Source of the DNA: a virus
Length of the DNA: 64,000 nucleotides
UHGV virus genome: UHGV-0373904
Direction: 5' to 3' (one strand)
The position numbers and the translations under genes were made by a program. The notes beneath the pieces are model-generated. The model made no database searches. It was not told the DNA's origin and saw only the letters and a program-made list of their open reading frames with translations. This document shows positions 14,256 through 46,684 of the stretch, one piece after another (position 1 is the first letter of the stretch; each line of letters opens with the position of its first letter).

Positions 14256-16622
14256 ATGCGCATGGTAAATGACCACGCAGAAGTGATTAAGAGTTCAACT
14301 TCTTTGGAGACATCTCAAGCACAGATTACAATGACACCTGAAATGTTCAGCCTTCTGAGTTCTGGTGTATACACATTTAAAGAAAGGGCAGTGATTCGTG
14401 AACTGTCATGTAATGCAGTAGATGCTCAGAAAGAAGCTGGAAAAGAGAACATCCCGTTCCATGTGCATTTGCCTACTCGATTTGAGCCTTACTTTGAAGT
14501 CCGTGACTTTGGAACTGGTTTAACCCATGACAAAGTAATGAGTTTGTATCTGAACTACGGGGCTTCTACGAAGAATGACTCTAATGATTACATTGGTGCA
14601 ATGGGTATCGGCTCAAAATCCCCATTTGCAATTGCTCAGTCATTCACAGTATCTAGCTATGTTGATGGTGTTGTTAATAAGTACTCTGTTTACCTTGAGA
14701 ATGGTATCCCTCAAGTAACTAAGCTCACTACTAACCAAACAAATGAACCTAATGGTTTAGCTGTACGTGTGGCAGTTGCTGACCACCGTATTTCAAAGTT
14801 CTTTGAAGAGGCTGGTAATGTATACTCATACTTTGCTGTAAAACCAGAGAGTAATGTGGAGTATAATGATATATTGGCAGATATGGATGTGATTGCTCGT
14901 GAAGAAGGTGTCTATGATGCCATGACTCATAAGCATAGCTGGCGTTCAAGCAGCAATAGAACAGAGTTTAACGTGGTTATGGGTAATATTGCCTATCCAG
15001 TTAATATGGAGGCATTACTTGGTGATGATTTCTTCAAAGTATTACCAGAATTTTTCCGCAGGAGCGTAGACCTTGTAAACATCTACATGCCCATTGGTTC
15101 AGTTGCTATTGCAGCTTCTCGTGAAGCATTGCAGATGAATGACACGACAAAAAATGTTATCATTGAGGCTACTAAAAAGATAACTGAAGCCATTACAAAG
15201 GATGTTATCAAGAAAGTTAATAGCCAACCTACACTCATGGATGCTGCACAGGCTTATGCTGAGTTACGTTTGAACTCACGAGAGATGTTTAATGCTGTGT
15301 GTCCAAAGCTAGAGTGGGGTGGTGTTAAGCTTGATTCTCTGGAAGAAGAATTACTAAACATTCGTCGTGGAATTATCTACGCAGAAGACGGCTCAGTCAT
15401 TTATGAACGTGACGGTAAAGGTAATATTAAGGTTGATAGGAACGGGAACAATATACCTAAAGTAGATTATCTTTATGACCCAGTTGCTTATGTCAAGTTC
15501 AACTCTTTAGAGAGTAAGATTCGTGCAACATCGCTTTCCTACACTCAAGAGGCAAGTATGTTCAATATCTTTGGCGCAATGCGTAAAAGCCAAATTGAAC
15601 AGTTTTTGTTTGTTATAAATGACCGTCGCAATAAAAATGGTACTGAGAAAACTGTAGGACGCAATCAAATCTTGCGTGGTGCATGTCGAGACTATGCCAG
15701 TGAGTCTAGTCTGTTTCACAGATACAATGGTATTGTCTTTGTATTCTCGACTGAAAAAGAGTTAGACGACCTAATCAATCTGCACAAACTTGATAAAAGC
15801 TTGTTAAAGATTGTGAAGATGTCTGATAAGGAACACCATTATCAGCGTAAAGAAGCTGTAAGAGGTGTTGTAAAACTCTGGAAAGCTGTTCCAGCAGAAG
15901 GTGTAGCTTCCTATAAAGAGGTTTCAGAGGACTTTGATACAATTGAAGAACCTCAGCTTTACATTAAGGCAGTTGGTGACACAGTTGATGGCGAATGTTT
16001 TTGCTCATCTCCAGAAGATGTAGCTAAGTCAGTTGCTAATGTTACAGGTAAGACAGTCTATGTTTTCCGAAAAGCAAATTGGAAAAAGATACCAGAAGAC
16101 TGGATTGAAGTAGATGAGAAGCTCTTGAACGACAGCTTAACTGATGTTCATTGGATTAATCATAACAGGTATATGACACGTATCTATATGAATGGTGTCC
16201 TCGACCTTACAAGCAGTTGGATTATTGCCAGAAACTTTACGTTCAATAACAGGAAGATTTCTCGTGGCTATTGTTATTCACGGGATACAAACAAAACTAT
16301 CTTCTTAGAAGGCAATGAAGATGCTGTAGAGGCAATGTTTGGTAAAATCCAATACGTTGCTGCACCGTTTGCATATACTTACACTATTAGTAGGTTGCAA
16401 ACTTTGAAAGACTGCCTTGACAATGATACAAAGCTGTACAAGAAAATTAAGAAAGCTGGTGACCGTATGGTCATTAAGGTGACAAACTACCTTTCAAAAA
16501 GAAAACAAGAAAACTTCTTGCTTTCTCATTTAGATTGGAATAAAGTGTCACCCATCGAAGTGAGTAAGTTCTTAGGCTTTGATGTGAAGTGTGTTCCAGA
16601 AGGGACTACAATTTACGATTAA
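14256..16622 (+). CDS. rIIA-like protein (GHKL-type ATPase domain)
   Basis: 788 aa; RBS aagagga; N-terminal ELSCNAVDA and DFGTG boxes resemble the histidine-kinase-like ATPase fold of phage rIIA. Confidence 0.55.
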   Translation: MRMVNDHAEVIKSSTSLETSQAQITMTPEMFSLLSSGVYTFKERAVIRELSCNAVDAQKEAGKENIPFHVHLPTRFEPYFEVRDFGTGLTHDKVMSLYLNYGASTKNDSNDYIGAMGIGSKSPFAIAQSFTVSSYVDGVVNKYSVYLENGIPQVTKLTTNQTNEPNGLAVRVAVADHRISKFFEEAGNVYSYFAVKPESNVEYNDILADMDVIAREEGVYDAMTHKHSWRSSSNRTEFNVVMGNIAYPVNMEALLGDDFFKVLPEFFRRSVDLVNIYMPIGSVAIAASREALQMNDTTKNVIIEATKKITEAITKDVIKKVNSQPTLMDAAQAYAELRLNSREMFNAVCPKLEWGGVKLDSLEEELLNIRRGIIYAEDGSVIYERDGKGNIKVDRNGNNIPKVDYLYDPVAYVKFNSLESKIRATSLSYTQEASMFNIFGAMRKSQIEQFLFVINDRRNKNGTEKTVGRNQILRGACRDYASESSLFHRYNGIVFVFSTEKELDDLINLHKLDKSLLKIVKMSDKEHHYQRKEAVRGVVKLWKAVPAEGVASYKEVSEDFDTIEEPQLYIKAVGDTVDGECFCSSPEDVAKSVANVTGKTVYVFRKANWKKIPEDWIEVDEKLLNDSLTDVHWINHNRYMTRIYMNGVLDLTSSWIIARNFTFNNRKISRGYCYSRDTNKTIFLEGNEDAVEAMFGKIQYVAAPFAYTYTISRLQTLKDCLDNDTKLYKKIKKAGDRMVIKVTNYLSKRKQENFLLSHLDWNKVSPIEVSKFLGFDVKCVPEGTTIYD

Positions 16623-17811: not shown

Positions 17812-17825
17812 TAAGTAATTCCTTA

Positions 17826-17850
17826 AAAGGCTGCTCCGGCGGCCTTTTTT
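17826..17850 (+). terminator. intrinsic terminator candidate
   Basis: GC-rich hairpin GGCTGCTCCGGCGGCC followed by TTTTTT. Confidence 0.5.
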
Positions 17851-17852
17851 AT

Positions 17853-17880
17853 TTGTATTTTGTGCAGAGTGCTGTATAAT
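17853..17880 (+). promoter_or_regulatory. sigma70-like promoter candidate
   Basis: -35 TTGTAT, 16-nt spacer, -10 TATAAT ending 17880; about 30 nt upstream of gene 17912. Confidence 0.4.
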
Positions 17881-17911
17881 TGTTGTCACGATAAACTAAA
17901 CAGGAGAACCA

Positions 17912-21161: not shown

Positions 21162-21947
21162 ATGGGTATTGTAAAAATAATCAATGGTGATATCTTTGCC
21201 GCATTTGATAAAGGTAAGTTTGACATCATCGGTCACGGTTGCAACTGTATGAATTTAATGGGTGCAGGTATCGCTGACAAGATTTCTAAACTTTACCCAA
21301 AAGCATATGAGACCGATACAGAAGTTTATCTATATGCAGGTGGTATAGGACACAAACCCTGTGAAAATTTACTGGGTAATTTCTCTGTAGCACGTTTAAA
21401 ACAAGGTCGTATAGCTAACCTTTACACTCAGCTTAAGACTGGTAAAGATGCCCGATACAGTGCTTTAGAGTCATCTTTGAAACAGCTTAACAGATACTGT
21501 GAAGTCAATCAGTTGAAGAAAGTCGGGTTACCTATGATTGGTGCAGGTATCGGTGGGCTAGACCCTCAAGCCGTCACAGTTATCATTAATCAGGTGATGA
21601 AGAGTGTAGATGTTTATCTATATGTCTATGAAGGAGAGATGTACCACAAGTTACGCTCAGGTTGGAAGAACTACTGTGAACCAGAATACTTTGCAGGTGT
21701 AGTTGTGTTCACGGATAATGCAGTTACCCTCTTCAGACGAAGAAAAGGTAAGATACATCAAAGTAACCCTCCGGTTGAAAAGATGTCTCTAAGTAACGCT
21801 CTAGTTACCCACCTGTCAAAGAGCAATCACAGAATTGCTGTAACATTTGGTAGTGATGCAGAAGCTTATATCTATGCAAGAACTGATGAGGATATCGAGG
21901 CAATCTTCTCTTCACCAGAAGTTACCTTCTTAGACGCAAAGAACTAA
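21162..21947 (+). CDS. macro-domain (ADP-ribose binding/processing) protein
   Basis: GDIF..DIIGHGCNCMNLMGAGIA and LPMIGAGIGG resemble macro-domain signature segments. Confidence 0.5.
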   Translation: MGIVKIINGDIFAAFDKGKFDIIGHGCNCMNLMGAGIADKISKLYPKAYETDTEVYLYAGGIGHKPCENLLGNFSVARLKQGRIANLYTQLKTGKDARYSALESSLKQLNRYCEVNQLKKVGLPMIGAGIGGLDPQAVTVIINQVMKSVDVYLYVYEGEMYHKLRSGWKNYCEPEYFAGVVVFTDNAVTLFRRRKGKIHQSNPPVEKMSLSNALVTHLSKSNHRIAVTFGSDAEAYIYARTDEDIEAIFSSPEVTFLDAKN

Positions 21948-22016
21948 GAAACTCTGTAGGATATTCACAATAGCCTAAGCCTTTCTTATCTGGTAAATTT
22001 TTCAGGTAAGGAGGGC

Positions 22017-22200
22017 TTTTTCATTTCAGAATTGTGCAGGTAGAGTTCTGTAGAGAAATCTGTAGAGAGAATTTTGAACTCCAAAGAGAAAATTCATTTT
22101 CAAACTGTGCAGGTAATCTCCAAAGAGCTTTTTCATTTTCAAAACGTGCAGACTCCGCTCAGGTCGGGCAAGAAAAATCATTTTAGAATTGTGCAGGTAG
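22017..22200 (+). repeat. four direct repeats of a ~22-nt motif TCATTTYMRAAYTGTGCAGGTA
   Basis: copies at ~22017-22042, 22091-22116, 22129-22153 and 22175-22200, followed by a C-rich tract CTCCCCCTCTTACTCCCCCTCTCCCC. Confidence 0.7.
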
Positions 22201-22375
22201 GTTTTTATAGACAGCCAGCCCAACACCTCTCCCCCTCTTACTCCCCCTCTCCCCAAAAGTCAATAGAAAAATTTGTAGCGGATTGAAAAATAATTCTTGA
22301 TTTGCGTTCTGTTTTGTGGTAGTCGTGCGCACCCGTTTCATTACAGTTTTGCCAAAAATATTTTTAAAATTTTTA

Positions 22376-22404
22376 TTGACTCTTTGAACGTGGTTATCTA
22401 ATAT
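22376..22404 (+). promoter_or_regulatory. sigma70-like promoter candidate for the small-gene array
   Basis: -35 TTGACT, 17-nt spacer, -10 TAATAT; followed by leader hairpin and first array gene. Confidence 0.45.
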
Positions 22405-22414
22405 TTACATCAAC

Positions 22415-22435
22415 GGGGAGGGAATGACCTTCCCC
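22415..22435 (+). promoter_or_regulatory. 5' leader hairpin, class A (copy 1)
   Basis: GGGGAGGGAATGACCTTCCCC then conserved ACTAAATAAA..CTAAACTGGAGATTCAAAAATG. Confidence 0.6.
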
Positions 22436-22467
22436 ACTAAATAAAATCCTAAACTGGAGATTCAAAA

Positions 22468-22656
22468 ATGGCATCAAGAAAAATTAAAGTTGGCGATGAG
22501 GTTAACATTAAGCACGAATACTCTTACAAAATGCTAACTATACGCTCTTATAAGGTTTATCAGGTGGAAGCTATCCACAAGGATAATACTTTTTCCTTAA
22601 AAGGGTATAGCGAACGTTTCCCTGCTGAACTCTTTGAGAAATGGAGCGCGAAATAA
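22468..22656 (+). CDS. hypothetical small protein (array gene 1)
   Basis: ATG 8 nt after conserved GGAGA RBS of the standard leader. Confidence 0.5.
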   Translation: MASRKIKVGDEVNIKHEYSYKMLTIRSYKVYQVEAIHKDNTFSLKGYSERFPAELFEKWSAK

Positions 22657-22862
22657 TGCTTTACAGTCGTGAATTGATGGTTACAACTAACGTTAACACA
22701 AAGGTAAAACGTTTTTACATGCAAATTTGTGGCGTATGGTCCAGAATATCAGAAGCCGACTATTGCAACTATGTAGAAACGGCTATTAATTCTAATTGCT
22801 ACCTTACAAGAAACACTAAGAAATTTACAAGGCAGACAGCGATTTACTACTACGACAAATAA
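22656..22862 (+). CDS. hypothetical small protein (array gene 2)
   Basis: start chosen at ATG overlapping upstream stop (TAATG); track ORF begins at 22641. Confidence 0.4.
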   Translation: MLYSRELMVTTNVNTKVKRFYMQICGVWSRISEADYCNYVETAINSNCYLTRNTKKFTRQTAIYYYDK

Positions 22863-22873
22863 AGTACTTTACA

Positions 22874-22903
22874 GGGGGCTTAAAAGCTGATATCTTAAGC
22901 CCC
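22874..22903 (+). promoter_or_regulatory. intercistronic hairpin, class B (copy 1)
   Basis: GGGGCTTAA-loop-TTAAGCCCC (9-bp stem) followed by conserved AGATAAAGAGCTTTAC..CTAAACTAGGAGATTCAAAAATG. Confidence 0.6.
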
Positions 22904-22950
22904 AGATAAAGAGCTTTACTAAATTAACCCTTAAACTAGGAGATTCAAAA

Positions 22951-23334
22951 ATGGCTTATCGTGCACCGAAATTCATCAACAAAGACAACTTTCGCAACGC
23001 ACTGGAGAAGTCACTTGATGAAAATTTTAAAGGTAACATTATCATTGTTCACGCATTCAATTTTAAGTATGATGTAAACGGGAATAGAATCAACCATTAC
23101 ACGGCAACCATGTTAGATGGTACTCTTTCAAGTGAAAAAGCCATTTTACATGCACTTGCTGGACGTGGTAAAAACCTGATAAAATGTGATAAGAGACGTT
23201 ATCAGGGTGGCGCATATGGTTATGATGATGCTGTTTATCATCTTGAAAATATGGGCTATAAAGTAGAAAAAGCTGGAGTGTCTCAAATAATCGGTAGTGA
23301 TGGTTATGTAACTACCTTCAAAATTAACAAATAA
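22951..23334 (+). CDS. hypothetical protein (array gene 3)
   Basis: ATG after standard leader; C-terminus KINK inside the repeated module. Confidence 0.5.
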   Translation: MAYRAPKFINKDNFRNALEKSLDENFKGNIIIVHAFNFKYDVNGNRINHYTATMLDGTLSSEKAILHALAGRGKNLIKCDKRRYQGGAYGYDDAVYHLENMGYKVEKAGVSQIIGSDGYVTTFKINK

Positions 23335-23356
23335 AGTACTTTACAAGGGGCTTATA

Positions 23357-23385
23357 GTTCGATAAAGTAAGCCCCAGATAAAGAG
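23357..23385 (+). promoter_or_regulatory. intercistronic hairpin, class B (copy 2)
   Basis: GGGGCTTATAGTTCGATAAAGTAAGCCCC; part of a ~95-bp near-identical direct repeat (23321-23420 vs 23701-23800). Confidence 0.6.
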
Positions 23386-23420
23386 CTTTACCACTAAATC
23401 CTAAATTGGAGAACTTAAAA

Positions 23421-44770: not shown

Positions 44771-45324
44771 GATACTTAAAATATGTTTCATGGATTTTCT
44801 TAGCTTTGTTAGAACCATTTGCAGCAACCCTAGCAGTCATCTTAGCACCTTTCGTAGTTCCATTCTACAGTGAGAAGAAAGGGCATCTACCTTTTGGATT
44901 CAGATGGACGGAGACCTATGACAACCCTATTGATGGTGACAAAGGCCACGTTGAGAGATGGGCTAAGATTAGAAAGATTGGTAAGCTTGGTGTCTACATG
45001 CAGAGAGTTGGATGGCTCTGGAGAAACAAAGCTTATAACTTCTCTTACCATGTATTAGGAAGAGATGTAAAAGACGTTACTAAGTGGAAAGGTAATATCA
45101 ACGTAAGTTCTAACCCTGAAGATAATCAAACAGGTTATCTCCTAATGTGGAACAGTAATGCTTGGGGATTATTCGCTTTTATCCCATCAATTAAAATCTT
45201 TGGTAAACAGTTTTACTGGAGAATTTATATTGGATGGAAACTTAAAAGTGTTGTCCCAGAAGAAAGAGCATTCTCAAGGGAAAGAGTTATGTTGGCATTC
45301 TTTATTCATCCACTGAGAAAGTAA
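44767..45324 (+). CDS. membrane protein (embedded in tRNA array)
   Basis: ATGA overlap with upstream gene; N-terminal TM helices WIFLALLEPFAATLAVILAPFVV. Confidence 0.45.
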   Translation: MRYLKYVSWIFLALLEPFAATLAVILAPFVVPFYSEKKGHLPFGFRWTETYDNPIDGDKGHVERWAKIRKIGKLGVYMQRVGWLWRNKAYNFSYHVLGRDVKDVTKWKGNINVSSNPEDNQTGYLLMWNSNAWGLFAFIPSIKIFGKQFYWRIYIGWKLKSVVPEERAFSRERVMLAFFIHPLRK

Positions 45325-45332
45325 AGATTTAA

Positions 45333-45408
45333 AGGGGATTAGTTTACAAGGTTAAAACCTCGGTCTTTGAAATCGAAGAAGTTGGTTCAATTCCAACATC
45401 CCCCGCCA
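45333..45408 (+). tRNA. tRNA-Gln(TTG)
   Basis: acceptor AGGGGAT/ATCCCCC with unpaired 1:72 (A/C), discriminator G, loop CTTTGAA, T-arm GTTGG-TTCAATT-CCAAC, CCA. Confidence 0.65.
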
Positions 45409-45410
45409 AT

Positions 45411-45489
45411 GCTCCATTACTCCAATTGGCAGAGAGGCCAGACTTAAAATCTGTGTTATGTATCGGTTCGAATCCGATATGGAGTACCA
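45411..45489 (+). tRNA. tRNA with Leu anticodon (TAA), short variable arm
   Basis: acceptor GCTCCAT/ATGGAGT, loop CTTAAAA, T-arm ATCGG-TTCGAAT-CCGAT, discriminator A, CCA; 79 nt. Confidence 0.55.
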
Positions 45490-45494
45490 AATTT

Positions 45495-45570
45495 AGCGGT
45501 ATAGCATAACTGGCAATGCAACAGTCTCTGAAGCTGTCCTATTAAGGTTCAAATCCTTATGCCGCTGCCA
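45495..45570 (+). tRNA. tRNA-Gln(CTG)
   Basis: acceptor AGCGGTA/TGCCGCT, anticodon stem ACAGT/GCTGT, loop CTCTGAA, T-arm TAAGG-TTCAAAT-CCTTA, discriminator G, CCA. Confidence 0.65.
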
Positions 45571-45601
45571 CTTCTAAGGATTCTTACGAGAGTCCTTAAA
45601 T

Positions 45602-45677
45602 GTGGCCTTATCATAAAAGGTAATGACCCATGCTGTGAACATGGTCTATACGGGTTCAAATCCCGTAGGTCACCCCA
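45602..45677 (+). tRNA. tRNA-His(GTG)
   Basis: acceptor GTGGCCT/AGGTCAC, anticodon stem CCATG/CATGG, loop CTGTGAA, T-arm ACGGG-TTCAAAT-CCCGT, discriminator C, CCA. Confidence 0.7.
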
Positions 45678-45682
45678 ATTTA

Positions 45683-45760
45683 TAGTCCAAGTAGCTTATA
45701 TGGTTAAAGCGCGTGTCTGAAAAACATGAGAAGAGGGTTCAAATCCCACTGGACTACCAA
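45683..45760 (+). tRNA. tRNA-Phe(GAA)
   Basis: perfect acceptor TAGTCCA/TGGACTA, anticodon stem CGTGT/ACATG, loop CTGAAAA, T-loop TTCAAAT, CCA. Confidence 0.7.
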
Positions 45761-45775
45761 TTTCAAAGGTGCTTA

Positions 45776-46510
45776 ATGAAAGAGATGACAGAACAAGGTA
45801 AGGAGATTTTTAATCTCTTAAAAACTGGTAAAGGGTTTTCTAACCCCCTTATTACTGGTGCAGCAGTTCTCGGTGGAACCGTAGCTGCCTCTACATCACT
45901 TGTAAGCTCTATTAGCTCTGTATCAGACCCTACAGTAAAGGATAAGCTTGTTGCTGCTGGACTTACAACAGTTCTGCTTAACAGCTTTACCACGAGTCTG
46001 ACAAGCACTACATCAACTACCAAAACACTAACAGATTACGGTCAAAAGTCCATTGATGAGTTTTCATCACGTATGCAGGTAGCAAAAGGTTACTCTAATG
46101 TTATGGGTGCAGCAGGTGAACAAGTTGGCTGTACACCGTTTAGTGGTATTATGGGCGTTGCTACAGAATATGGTCAAAAAGCTATTGACACAATTAACAG
46201 TGCACTAGATGTCGTTAATGATGTATTAAGTGACTTACAAGATGCTATTGACAAAGGTCTTGATACTATTTCTGATTTAGCTAACCAAGCTGTTAGTAAG
46301 ATTAATGAAGGTATTTCGAAGATTACAGCTTATGCAGATGAAGTTGTGCAGATGATTGAAGAAGAAGCTGCTCTTATTGCAGAGTACCTTAAAACGAATA
46401 TCAATGGGTTCTTAGCAGGTATCTTACCAGACTGGTTTGATGATGCTTGTAAAACTGGTGTGATTGACACTATTGCAACACCAGAAATGAAGAACGCATT
46501 ACAGAAATAA
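45776..46510 (+). CDS. hypothetical Ser/Thr-rich protein
   Basis: track ORF starts at GTG 45713 inside tRNA-Phe; ATG 45776 is the first start downstream of the tRNA. Confidence 0.45.
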   Translation: MKEMTEQGKEIFNLLKTGKGFSNPLITGAAVLGGTVAASTSLVSSISSVSDPTVKDKLVAAGLTTVLLNSFTTSLTSTTSTTKTLTDYGQKSIDEFSSRMQVAKGYSNVMGAAGEQVGCTPFSGIMGVATEYGQKAIDTINSALDVVNDVLSDLQDAIDKGLDTISDLANQAVSKINEGISKITAYADEVVQMIEEEAALIAEYLKTNINGFLAGILPDWFDDACKTGVIDTIATPEMKNALQK

Positions 46511-46511
46511 T

Positions 46512-46604
46512 GGAAGATTAACCCTAAAAGGTAAGGGAGCAGTTTGCTAAACTGCCAGTAGCTGAGAAATCGGTGTACCAGTTCAAGTCTGGTATCTTCC
46601 TCCA
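46512..46604 (+). tRNA. tRNA-Ser(GCT), long variable arm
   Basis: acceptor GGAAGAT/ATCTTCC, anticodon stem GCAGT/ACTGC, loop TTGCTAA, long variable arm, T-arm ACCAG-TTCAAGT-CTGGT, CCA. Confidence 0.7.
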
Positions 46605-46608
46605 ATTT

Positions 46609-46684
46609 GAATCCGTGACAGAAATGGCTATGTGCCTGTCTGCAAAACAGGTTTATAAGGGTTCGAGTCCCTTCGGATTCTCCA
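46609..46684 (+). tRNA. tRNA-Cys(GCA)
   Basis: acceptor GAATCCG/CGGATTC, anticodon stem CCTGT/ACAGG, loop CTGCAAA, T-arm AAGGG-TTCGAGT-CCCTT, CCA. Confidence 0.7.

What the first reader, a model, noticed from the sequence alone, without database searches (positions are those of the whole stretch)
22017..22254. Four direct repeats of a 22-nt motif plus a C-rich tract upstream of the small-gene array promoter
TCATTTYMRAAYTGTGCAGGTA occurs four times within 185 nt at irregular spacing, followed by CTCCCCCTCTTACTCCCCCTCTCCCC and then a TTGACT-N17-TAATAT promoter. This looks like a binding-site array for a regulator or an iteron-type origin. The two ORFs the track predicts here are probably artefacts of the repeats.
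Basis: seen in the sequence. Interest (0 to 1): 0.5.

Follow-up and report, generated by a model that had tools for sequence, protein, structure and literature searches.

The report
Conserved non-coding repeat array, Felix-O1-like phage
In front of the early small-gene block of a Felix-O1-type phage lies a non-coding array of four copies of one 18-base motif, kept across four phage genera and found nowhere else in the genome, so it is most likely a docking site for a DNA-binding protein whose identity and role are still unknown.

Summary
The window is a Felixounavirus genome (100% identical to phage KhF3 across the region). The repeats are real. All share the bipartite core TCATTT-N7-GTGCA.

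The array lies in a 520-bp gap. Upstream are the macro-domain gene and its terminator. Downstream is the first sigma-70-type promoter of about 20 small genes of unknown function.

Three to five copies, in the same order and orientation, occur in Felixounavirus, Mooglevirus, Suspvirus, Kolesnikvirus and a more distant metagenomic phage, although the flanking DNA has diverged. The motif occurs nowhere else in about 88 kb of genome. Nothing similar was found in bacterial genomes, E. coli genomes or plasmids.

Spacing differs by 2 bp between lineages, which breaks every ORF laid over the repeats. No RNA family matches and no conserved RNA fold was found apart from the terminator.

The array is not the terminal repeat, which lies about 8 kb downstream.

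The best reading is a cis-acting array of protein-binding sites on DNA. Whether it acts as a regulator or insulator, a replication origin or a DNA-entry checkpoint is unresolved. The features of a classical iteron origin are mostly not met. The C-rich tract looks like a Rho-loading site.

The parts
21162..21947 (+). Macro-domain protein gene (261 aa), the conserved left neighbour of the array
   Evidence: Pfam Macro domain, E=1e-7. PHROG 335, E=3e-113. It is the left neighbour in every relative examined.
21977..22018 (+). Intrinsic terminator hairpin (17 pairs, 8-nt loop). Its T-tail runs into repeat 1.
   Evidence: Terminator scan. Annotated as a terminator in wV8, ASO1A and KhF3. Compensatory changes at two stem pairs across relatives.
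22021..22042 (+). Repeat 1, TCATTTCAGAATTGTGCAGGTA
Evidence: Weight-matrix score 45.5 bits.
22043..22093 (+). Double-length spacer between repeats 1 and 2. It holds two copies of TCTGTAGAGA 12 nt apart (CTGTAGAG starts at 22048 and 22060) and then CTCCAAAGAG.
   Evidence: Sequence, motif positions. The gap is 73-77 nt in the enterobacterial lineages, whereas Erwinia phages have a repeat copy there, 37 nt after repeat 1.
22094..22115 (+). Repeat 2, TCATTTTCAAACTGTGCAGGTA
   Evidence: 38.2 bits. Absent from the three-copy variants Wec177 and BPS17L1.
22133..22154 (+). Repeat 3, the diverged copy TCATTTTCAAAACGTGCAGACT
   Evidence: 33.7 bits. Orthologous copies in relatives.
22178..22199 (+). Repeat 4, TCATTTTAGAATTGTGCAGGTA
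   Evidence: 39.3 bits. With its left flank GGTCGGGCAAGAAAAATCATTTT it lies in the only stretch (window 22093-22195) that BLAST still aligns to Erwinia phages.
22212..22254 (+). C-rich, G-poor tract (63% C, 5% G); candidate Rho-loading (rut) site
   Evidence: Most extreme C-over-G 45-mer in the window. Present in Felixounavirus, Mooglevirus and Suspvirus, shorter in Erwinia phages, absent from Wec177.
22255..22375 (+). Conserved non-coding block. It holds a weak promoter-like site, TTGATT-N17-TAGTCG with TG before the second hexamer (22297-22325), and an A/T-only run (22350-22375) just upstream of the main promoter.
   Evidence: Alignment of 9 relatives. The 40-bp window starting at 22336 is in the least stable 0.3% of the window. 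The promoter-like site was read from the sequence and is not verified.
22376..22404 (+). First sigma-70-type promoter of the small-gene block, TTGACT-N17-TAATAT
   Evidence: Promoter scan. Annotated as a promoter in ASO1A. TTGACT is invariant in all 9 aligned relatives.
22415..22435 (+). Hairpin in the 5' leader (GGGGAGGG...CCTTCCCC), followed by the GGAG ribosome-binding site and the ATG at 22468
   Evidence: Sequence. Part of a promoter-hairpin-RBS cassette that recurs between the small genes (D1, D7, D8).

Best explanation
The four repeats are a cis-acting DNA element: an array of binding sites for one sequence-specific DNA-binding protein.

Each site is asymmetric and bipartite. Two constant blocks, TCATTT and GTGCA, flank seven A/T-rich bases. 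That is the footprint expected of a protein that contacts two successive major grooves. Because all copies point the same way, the bound proteins would form an oriented complex.

The array sits at the head of the early small-gene block near the right end of the genome. It follows the terminator of the long transcription unit that ends with the macro-domain gene. It lies upstream of the C-rich tract and of the first early promoter.

My preferred role (inferred, not shown) is a control or insulator region. On this reading the intrinsic terminator, the protein array and the C-rich Rho-loading tract together keep transcription from the upstream unit out of the early block, or set the activity of its first promoter.

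The binder is more likely a conserved phage protein than a host factor, because I could match no host consensus. That comparison was made from memory, not with a tool.

Shown: the anatomy, the conservation, the uniqueness in the genome, the lack of coding constraint, and the absence of a conserved RNA fold. Inferred: protein binding, the identity of the binder, and the functional outcome.
For: 1. The core is kept in 3-5 copies, in the same order, orientation and position (after the macro-domain gene and terminator, before the first early promoter). This holds in Felixounavirus, Mooglevirus, Suspvirus and Kolesnikvirus, and in a divergent 88-kb IMG/VR contig.
2. Erwinia phages are so diverged that BLAST aligns only window 22093-22195, the stretch spanning repeats 2-4.
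3. In a 9-genome alignment the TCATTT and GTGCA columns are 90% identical, against 67-69% for the rest of the gap. The alignment misplaces some Erwinia copies, so the contrast is an underestimate.
4. The locus is unique. The four sites score 34-45 bits. Nothing scores above 10.6 bits elsewhere in the window, or above 2.1 bits in the remaining 24 kb of the KhF3 genome.
5. The region is non-coding. Spacings of 39/41, 43/45 and 73/75/77 nt between lineages, plus stops, break every ORF over the repeats.
6. No RNA evidence. Nothing in Rfam approaches a family threshold: three chance-level matches, E 8-10, none to ToxI. The fold is not more stable than shuffles (z = -1.2 on +, +1.7 on -). Only the terminator stem shows compensatory changes. 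The array starts at the terminator's T-tail, so little upstream transcription should reach it.
7. It is not mimicry of host DNA. There was no related array in one genome from each of 185,579 bacterial and archaeal species, no match in 5,426 complete E. coli genomes and none in 72,556 plasmids.
8. For the C-tract as a Rho site: it is the most C-over-G stretch in the window, and the second most extreme one (29357) also follows a terminator-like hairpin and T-run (read from the sequence) after the last ORF of the block.
Against: No binding protein has been identified. The only recognisable DNA-binding protein found is a 99-aa Xre-type helix-turn-helix protein, and that type normally binds palindromes. 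These sites are not palindromic.

The array ends about 175 bp upstream of the -35 hexamer, which is unusually far for a repressor or activator. The roughly 20 other early promoters of the block carry no copy, so the array cannot be the general early switch.

A function on RNA or in replication is not excluded. Nothing here measures binding, transcription or replication.
Confidence: 0.6

Rival explanations
1. Iteron-type replication origin. An initiator protein binds the four direct repeats, opens the nearby A/T-rich DNA (22350-22375), and loads the phage's T7-type primase-helicase. Early transcription from the adjacent promoter may help the opening.
For: Four direct, asymmetric sites of about 20 bp at one locus in the genome. 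An A/T-only run and a promoter lie within 200 bp. A strongly strand-asymmetric C/G tract lies beside the repeats. The origin of this phage group is not described in the papers I could search.
Against: No Rep-, O- or DnaA-like protein among the 20 neighbouring proteins scanned; the whole genome was not scanned. Spacing is 37-45 bp and shifts by 2 bp between lineages, unlike the phased 11/22-bp iterons. The A/T-rich stretch is 150 bp from the repeats and is unremarkable at 100-200 bp scale; the least stable DNA of the window lies at 30.0-30.9 kb. There are no consensus DnaA boxes in the gap. GC skew shows no reversal here; it only falls to a lower positive level across the small-gene block. From general knowledge, phages with T7- or T4-type replisomes usually start replication from promoters, not from iterons.
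Confidence: 0.2
2. DNA-entry checkpoint like the phage T5 injection stop signal. The right genome end enters first, carrying the early block. Entry pauses at the repeat array until early proteins are made.
For: The array is an untranslated repeat region at the inner edge of the early block. It lies 8.15-8.33 kb from the right physical end, about 9% of this genome and about 7.7% in Pr103Blw. T5's first-step transfer covers 7.9% of its genome and ends in a conserved untranslated repeat region (bioRxiv 10.1101/866236). In Erwinia phages each copy reads CTATGCACA or TTATGCACG on the minus strand, one mismatch from a DnaA box.
Against: Two-step entry has not been reported for this phage group, and it is unknown which end enters first. 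T5's element consists of inverted repeats and paired DnaA boxes inside a 10-kb terminal repeat. Here there are only direct repeats, outside a terminal repeat of about 580 bp. The copies in this E. coli phage have 3 mismatches to a DnaA box, and no consensus box lies in the gap. I did not search this genome specifically for homologues of the T5 A1 and A2 genes; the 20 neighbouring proteins scanned matched only PHROG families of unknown function, apart from the macro-domain protein.
Confidence: 0.07
3. RNA-level element. The repeats act in a transcript, made by terminator readthrough or by an antisense RNA from the weak minus-strand site TTGACT-N17-TAAGAG (22263 down to 22235). Possible roles are a protein sponge, a processing signal, or a mimic of a type III antitoxin (a ToxI-like tandem array).
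For: Unit length of 37-45 nt and tandem direct arrangement resemble type III antitoxin arrays; this is recalled knowledge, not a test. All copies share one orientation. A promoter-like site on the minus strand is conserved in the enterobacterial lineages (read).
Against: No ToxI or other Rfam family match approaching a threshold. Similarity to my recalled ToxI unit is not significant (14% of shuffles score as well). No toxin gene follows the array. A terminator precedes the array rather than following it. No host or plasmid counterpart exists. No stable or covarying structure. The minus-strand -10 hexamer lacks the final T and is absent from Wec177.
Confidence: 0.08
4. Non-functional remnant of tandem duplications of the terminator-proximal sequence.
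For: Copy number varies between three and five. Repeat 2 is deleted or mutated in some isolates. The T-run of repeats 1 and 3 resembles a terminator tail.
Against: The 11 core positions stay constant in orthologous copies across four genera while the spacers and flanks diverge beyond BLAST detection. Neutral remnants would not survive that.
Confidence: 0.05

Closest known systems
Iteron arrays of phage lambda ori and of plasmid origins (F, P1, R6K, pSC101)
   Same: Several direct copies of an asymmetric site of about 20 bp at one locus, near A/T-rich DNA and a promoter.
   Different: No cognate initiator gene next to the array. Spacing is 37-45 bp and not helically phased. No prominent unwinding element or DnaA or IHF sites. 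The motif is conserved across genera instead of co-diverging with an initiator.
Phage T5 injection stop signal region (Repeat Region 3 of the left terminal repeat)
   Same: A conserved untranslated repeat region at the inner border of the first-expressed gene block, 8-9% of the genome length from a physical end.
   Different: The T5 region is built of inverted repeats, palindromes and paired DnaA boxes, and lies inside a 10-kb terminal repeat. Here there are four direct repeats outside a terminal repeat of about 580 bp. Two-step entry is not known for this group.
Asymmetric operator sets of phage repressors (for example the P1 C1 operators)
   Same: A non-palindromic site of about 17-20 bp recognised in one orientation.
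   Different: P1 operators are scattered over many promoters and overlap them. Here all copies lie at one locus, well upstream of the promoter. This comparison rests on recalled knowledge.
Type III toxin-antitoxin antitoxin arrays (ToxI) and phage pseudo-ToxI
   Same: Tandem non-coding direct repeats with a unit of about 36-45 nt in phages of Enterobacterales.
   Different: No sequence or covariance-model match. Irregular spacing. The terminator is on the wrong side. No toxin partner and no host counterpart.
Rho-dependent terminator loading (rut) sites, for the C-rich tract only
   Same: An untranslated stretch that is C-rich and G-poor, downstream of an intrinsic terminator.
   Different: The tract is 43 nt long, shorter than typical rut regions. 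It is missing in at least one relative (Wec177). Rho dependence is untested.

Membership tests
Iteron-type replication origin | Three or more direct repeats of a 17-22-bp initiator site | tested here: met
   Four copies here and 3-5 in relatives.
Iteron-type replication origin | Cognate initiator (Rep/O-type) gene adjacent to or overlapping the repeats | tested here: not met
   The neighbours are a macro-domain protein and small proteins of unknown PHROG families. None of the 20 proteins scanned gave an initiator hit. The whole genome was not scanned.
Iteron-type replication origin | Regular, helically phased spacing (about 11 or 22 bp) | tested here: not met
   Spacing is 73/39/45 here, 37/37/39 in Erwinia phages and 75/41/45 in Moogle.
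Iteron-type replication origin | Adjacent A/T-rich DNA-unwinding element | tested here: inconclusive
   The 40-bp window starting at 22336 is in the least stable 0.3% of the window. It lies 150 bp from the repeats and is unremarkable at 100-200 bp scale. The minimum of the window lies at 30.0-30.9 kb.
Iteron-type replication origin | Supports initiator-dependent replication | not testable with these tools
   Needs marker-frequency analysis or a plasmid replication assay.
T5-type injection stop signal | Untranslated repeat region at the inner edge of the first-entering, first-expressed block, about 8% from the end | tested here: inconclusive
   The position fits: 8.15-8.33 kb from the right end as inferred from the terminal-repeat homologue at 29771-30350. 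Which end enters first is unknown.
T5-type injection stop signal | Inverted repeats or palindromes with paired DnaA boxes | tested here: not met
   Only direct repeats. No consensus DnaA box in 21948-22467. The repeat 9-mers have 3 mismatches to the box.
T5-type injection stop signal | Located within the long terminal repeat | tested here: not met
   The terminal repeat is about 580-608 bp and lies about 7.6 kb downstream of the array.
Direct terminal repeat / packaging site | Coincides with the physical genome ends | tested here: not met
   The PhageTerm-defined repeat of Pr103Blw, annotated at both ends of its record, maps to window 29771-30350. The UAB_Phi87 termini determined with Bal31 and SpeI fall in a SpeI fragment that excludes the array.
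Type III antitoxin RNA array (ToxI-like) | Match to the ToxI family, or significant similarity to its repeat unit | tested here: not met
   No ToxI match in Rfam at E up to 10. Local alignment to the recalled ToxI unit gives p about 0.14.
Type III antitoxin RNA array (ToxI-like) | Promoter upstream, terminator and endoribonuclease toxin gene downstream, or a host array to mimic | tested here: not met
   The terminator lies upstream. The downstream genes belong to unknown PHROG families. No similar array in bacterial genomes, E. coli genomes or plasmids.
Protein-coding gene | Reading frame preserved among relatives | tested here: not met
   Frameshifts and stops in the three ORFs that overlap the repeats. 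Annotations disagree between records.
Structured non-coding RNA | Rfam match, or a stable fold with covariation | tested here: not met
   Only the terminator stem covaries.
Rho-dependent terminator (C-rich tract) | C-rich, G-poor, untranslated RNA segment downstream of a transcription unit | tested here: met
   27 C and 2 G in 45 nt, the extreme of the window. A second such tract follows the last ORF of the small-gene block and a terminator-like hairpin.
Rho-dependent terminator (C-rich tract) | Termination depends on Rho | not testable with these tools
   Needs 3'-end mapping with and without bicyclomycin.

The most novel reading that the evidence does not exclude
The array is the cis-acting stop or checkpoint of a two-step DNA entry in Felix-O1-type phages. 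The right-terminal ~8 kb, which carries ~20 small host-takeover genes with their own host-type promoters, would enter and be expressed first. A protein bound to the four oriented sites would hold back the remaining ~80 kb. That would be a second, sequence-defined example of the T5 phenomenon, built from different parts.
Probability: 0.07. Interest if true: 0.75.

Novelty: new member of a known kind. Interest (0 to 1): 0.42.

Why it matters
Felix-O1-type phages are classic Salmonella and E. coli typing, biocontrol and therapy phages. The papers I could search still state that their temporal control is unknown, and none that I found describes their replication origin.

This is a short, sharply defined motif that occurs at one locus and is conserved across the subfamily, at the head of the early gene block. 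It gives a concrete handle: a bait to fish for the binding protein, a small target for deletion in engineerable relatives such as Bas63, and a landmark for annotation, where pipelines currently call spurious ORFs.

If it proves to be the origin or an entry checkpoint, it would fill a real gap. If it is an insulator, it is a tidy but ordinary piece of phage regulation.

Tried and rejected
1. Terminal repeat or packaging site. The large non-coding gap and an assembly that breaks here (Andreotti) suggested it. Rejected: the PhageTerm-annotated 581-bp repeat of Pr103Blw maps to window 29771-30350, and the SpeI/Bal31 data for UAB_Phi87 agree.

2. DnaA boxes. Erwinia-phage copies are one mismatch from the box, but the copies in this window have three, and no consensus box lies in the gap.

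3. ToxI-like antitoxin mimic. No Rfam hit, no significant alignment, no host counterpart.

4. CRISPR-like mini-array. The stretches between cores are only 5-17 nt of partly conserved sequence, and no bacterial counterpart exists.

5. Tandem promoters (sigma-70, sigma-E, sigma-54, sigma-32) within the units. I checked by eye; spacings or key bases do not fit, and the promoter scan finds none in 22019-22200.

6. Host transcription-factor consensus sites (IHF, Fis, CRP, OmpR, MarA/Rob, TyrR, Lrp, MlrA). I compared from memory only. There was no convincing match, and this is not a formal test.

7. GC-skew evidence for an origin. Skew follows the direction of transcription and does not reverse at 22 kb; it only falls to a lower positive level across the small-gene block.

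8. A weak fifth site at 17842 (10.1 bits). It is within shuffle range and overlaps an unrelated terminator and promoter-like site.

9. Literature. The Felix O1 genome paper, the UAB_Phi87 paper and the Bas63 gene-essentiality preprint do not mention this array. One search with loose settings returned only irrelevant papers.

Full report
IDENTITY AND SETTING
The 571 bases around the finding are 100% identical to Enterobacteria phage KhF3. They are 72-99% identical to 289 records, nearly all of the subfamily Ounavirinae: Felixounavirus, Mooglevirus, Suspvirus and Kolesnikvirus. The finding lies in a 520-bp gap (21948-22467) with no conserved ORF. To the left is a macro-domain gene (21162-21947; Pfam Macro). 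To the right is the first of about 20 small plus-strand genes. All of those scanned fall in PHROG families of unknown function, and most intergenic spaces between them hold a sigma-70-like promoter.

THE OBSERVATION
None of 100 shuffles reaches three matches. The copy at 22133 has five mismatches to that consensus but keeps the core TCATTT-N7-GTGCA. It scores 33.7 bits on a weight matrix built from relatives, against 10.6 bits or less anywhere else in the window and 12.7 for the best shuffle. An intrinsic terminator hairpin lies at 21977-22018, and its T-tail runs directly into repeat 1. Two of its stem pairs show compensatory changes among relatives.

CONSERVATION
The same arrangement recurs in wV8, Pr103Blw, ESh21, Moogle, SUSP1, three Erwinia/Kolesnikvirus phages, about 30 IMG/VR contigs, and a divergent 88-kb metagenomic contig (L037). 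In L037 the macro-domain protein is only 148 aa. The arrangement is: macro-domain gene, terminator, three to five copies in one orientation, usually a C-rich stretch, then the first early promoter.

Erwinia phages are so diverged that BLAST aligns only window 22093-22195, the stretch spanning repeats 2-4. Individual copies are orthologous between genera. For example, GGCAAGAAAAATCATTTT precedes repeat 4 here and repeat 3 in Erwinia phages. The array therefore predates the split of the genera.

In a 9-genome alignment the two constant blocks are 90% identical, against 67-69% for the rest of the gap. The seven middle bases stay A/T-rich but vary. Three-copy variants exist (Wec177, BPS17L1).

WHAT THE ARRAY IS NOT
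- Not coding. Spacing changes by 2 nt between lineages (39/41, 43/45, 73/75/77), and the three ORFs over the repeats acquire frameshifts and stops. Different records annotate different strands and frames here.
- Not a described or structured RNA. Rfam gives only three chance-level matches (E 8-10, far below each family's threshold). Folding energies are no better than shuffles on either strand. Only the terminator stem covaries.
- Not the terminal repeat. Felixounaviruses have direct terminal repeats of 581-608 bp (PMC4837284 and PMC8303462). The repeat annotated at both ends of the Pr103Blw record maps to window 29771-30350. An in-silico SpeI digest of UAB_Phi87 places its experimentally degraded end fragments around the same locus and excludes the array. 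The array therefore lies 8.15-8.33 kb inside the right physical end.
- Not a copy of host DNA. The two-copy pattern found no related array in one genome from each of 185,579 bacterial and archaeal species. BLAST found nothing in 5,426 complete E. coli genomes or 72,556 plasmids.
- Not repeated elsewhere in the phage. The remaining 24 kb of the KhF3 genome holds no site above 2.1 bits. A short stretch between the window's end and the part of KhF3 that I fetched may not have been scanned.

MOST LIKELY MECHANISM
The features are: a bipartite, non-palindromic site of 18-22 bp with two constant blocks about 12 bp apart centre to centre, an A/T-rich middle, several copies in one orientation, and one locus per genome. 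Together they are the signature of a cis-acting array bound by one sequence-specific protein. That part I hold at about 0.6.

Its position suggests a control or insulator region. The array follows a terminator and precedes the most C-rich, G-poor stretch of the window. The second most C-rich stretch (29357) also follows a terminator-like hairpin after the last ORF of the small-gene block. That favours reading both C-tracts as Rho-loading back-up terminators.

Weaknesses of this reading:
- The array ends about 175 bp upstream of the promoter's -35 hexamer.
- The other early promoters carry no copy.
- The only recognisable DNA-binding protein I found, a 99-aa Xre-type protein, would be expected to bind palindromes.

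RIVAL READINGS
Iteron origin (about 0.2). The repeats fit. However, no initiator gene is nearby, the spacing is not phased, the A/T-rich run is modest and 150 bp away, there are no DnaA boxes, and GC skew shows no reversal here, only a drop to a lower positive level across the small-gene block.

T5-like entry checkpoint (about 0.07). The position fits well: 8-9% of the genome from an end, at the inner edge of the early block. T5's signal is likewise an untranslated repeat region (bioRxiv 10.1101/866236). But the architecture differs, DnaA-box similarity exists only in Erwinia phages, and two-step entry is unknown in this group.

RNA-level function, including an antitoxin mimic (about 0.08), has no positive evidence. 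Neutral duplication debris (about 0.05) is contradicted by the conservation.

NOVELTY
The Felix O1 genome paper lists other direct repeats and states that temporal control is unknown (PMC3185647). The wV8 record annotates nine repeat families, but none covers this array. The Bas63 essentiality preprint reports no data for this gap in the text I read. As far as the searchable literature goes, the array is undescribed. As a kind of element it is familiar: a direct-repeat protein-binding array in a phage control region. I therefore rate it a new member of a known kind, of moderate interest.

Noticed in passing
window 29280-30950 (terminal-repeat homologue at 29771-30350): A 1.67-kb stretch with no ORF of 60 aa or more between the convergent small-gene block and the minus-strand genes. 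It holds the homologue of the 581-bp direct terminal repeat of Pr103Blw (92% identity). It is packed with YTGTTAR copies, often 11 bp apart: 13 fall in 30001-30500, against 2 or fewer in any 500-bp bin outside 29501-31000. It also contains the least stable DNA of the window. It is a candidate terminase-recognition or origin region.
   Followed up: partly
window 29357-29401: The second most C-over-G stretch of the window (19 C, 1 G in 45 nt). It follows the last ORF of the small-gene block and a terminator-like hairpin with a T-run (read from the sequence). It parallels the C-tract of the finding and suggests Rho-dependent back-up terminators.
   Followed up: partly
window 22183-22341, minus strand: A 52-aa ORF that stays free of stops in the enterobacterial relatives, although two have frameshifts and Wec177 lacks the start codon. 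It has no visible ribosome-binding site and is broken in Erwinia phages. Some records annotate it (for example Pr103Blw_00144). It most likely reflects DNA-level conservation of the block 22255-22340.
   Followed up: partly
window 22297-22325 (+) and 22263-22235 (-): Two weak promoter-like sites conserved in the enterobacterial lineages. One is TTGATT-N17-TAGTCG with TG before the second hexamer, 80 bp upstream of the main promoter. The other, on the minus strand, is TTGACT-N17-TAAGAG and would read through the G-rich complement of the C-tract into the repeats. Both lack the final T of the -10 hexamer.
   Followed up: no
L037 (IMG/VR contig 3300045988_063805), positions 1010-640 read on the minus strand: A divergent relative with five motif copies, one of them degenerate, split 2+3 by an insertion of about 110 bp. 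They are followed by about a dozen TTAACA/TAACA copies roughly 10-12 bp apart. TTAACA is the reverse complement of the TGTTAA motif that fills the terminal-repeat region of the window.
   Followed up: partly
window 22855-22919, 23327-23391 and further intergenic spaces up to about 28.6 kb: Recurrent cassettes between the small genes, made of a promoter (TTTACA-N17-TAAAGT), a hairpin and a ribosome-binding site. They correspond to the DR families annotated in wV8 and to the 57-bp repeats noted in the Felix O1 paper.
   Followed up: partly
JN225449.1 (UAB_Phi87), record positions 1-542 and 87062-87603: The GenBank record repeats its first 542 bp at its end, inside the tRNA region. This is not the 608-bp physical terminal repeat, whose homologue lies at about 15152-15765 of the record. 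It looks like an assembly overlap.
   Followed up: yes
window 17812-17911: The gap after the rIIB-like gene holds a terminator followed by TTTGTA-N17-TATAAT. It contains the best motif-like site on the plus strand outside the array (10.1 bits), which is within chance range.
   Followed up: yes
window 41381-46684: A cluster of 26 tRNA genes on the plus strand.
   Followed up: no
window 22048-22069: Two copies of TCTGTAGAGA 12 nt apart fill the double-length gap between repeats 1 and 2. Related YTRTAGA words recur after repeat 4 (22205) and at 22272-22279 (TTTGTAGC).
   Followed up: no
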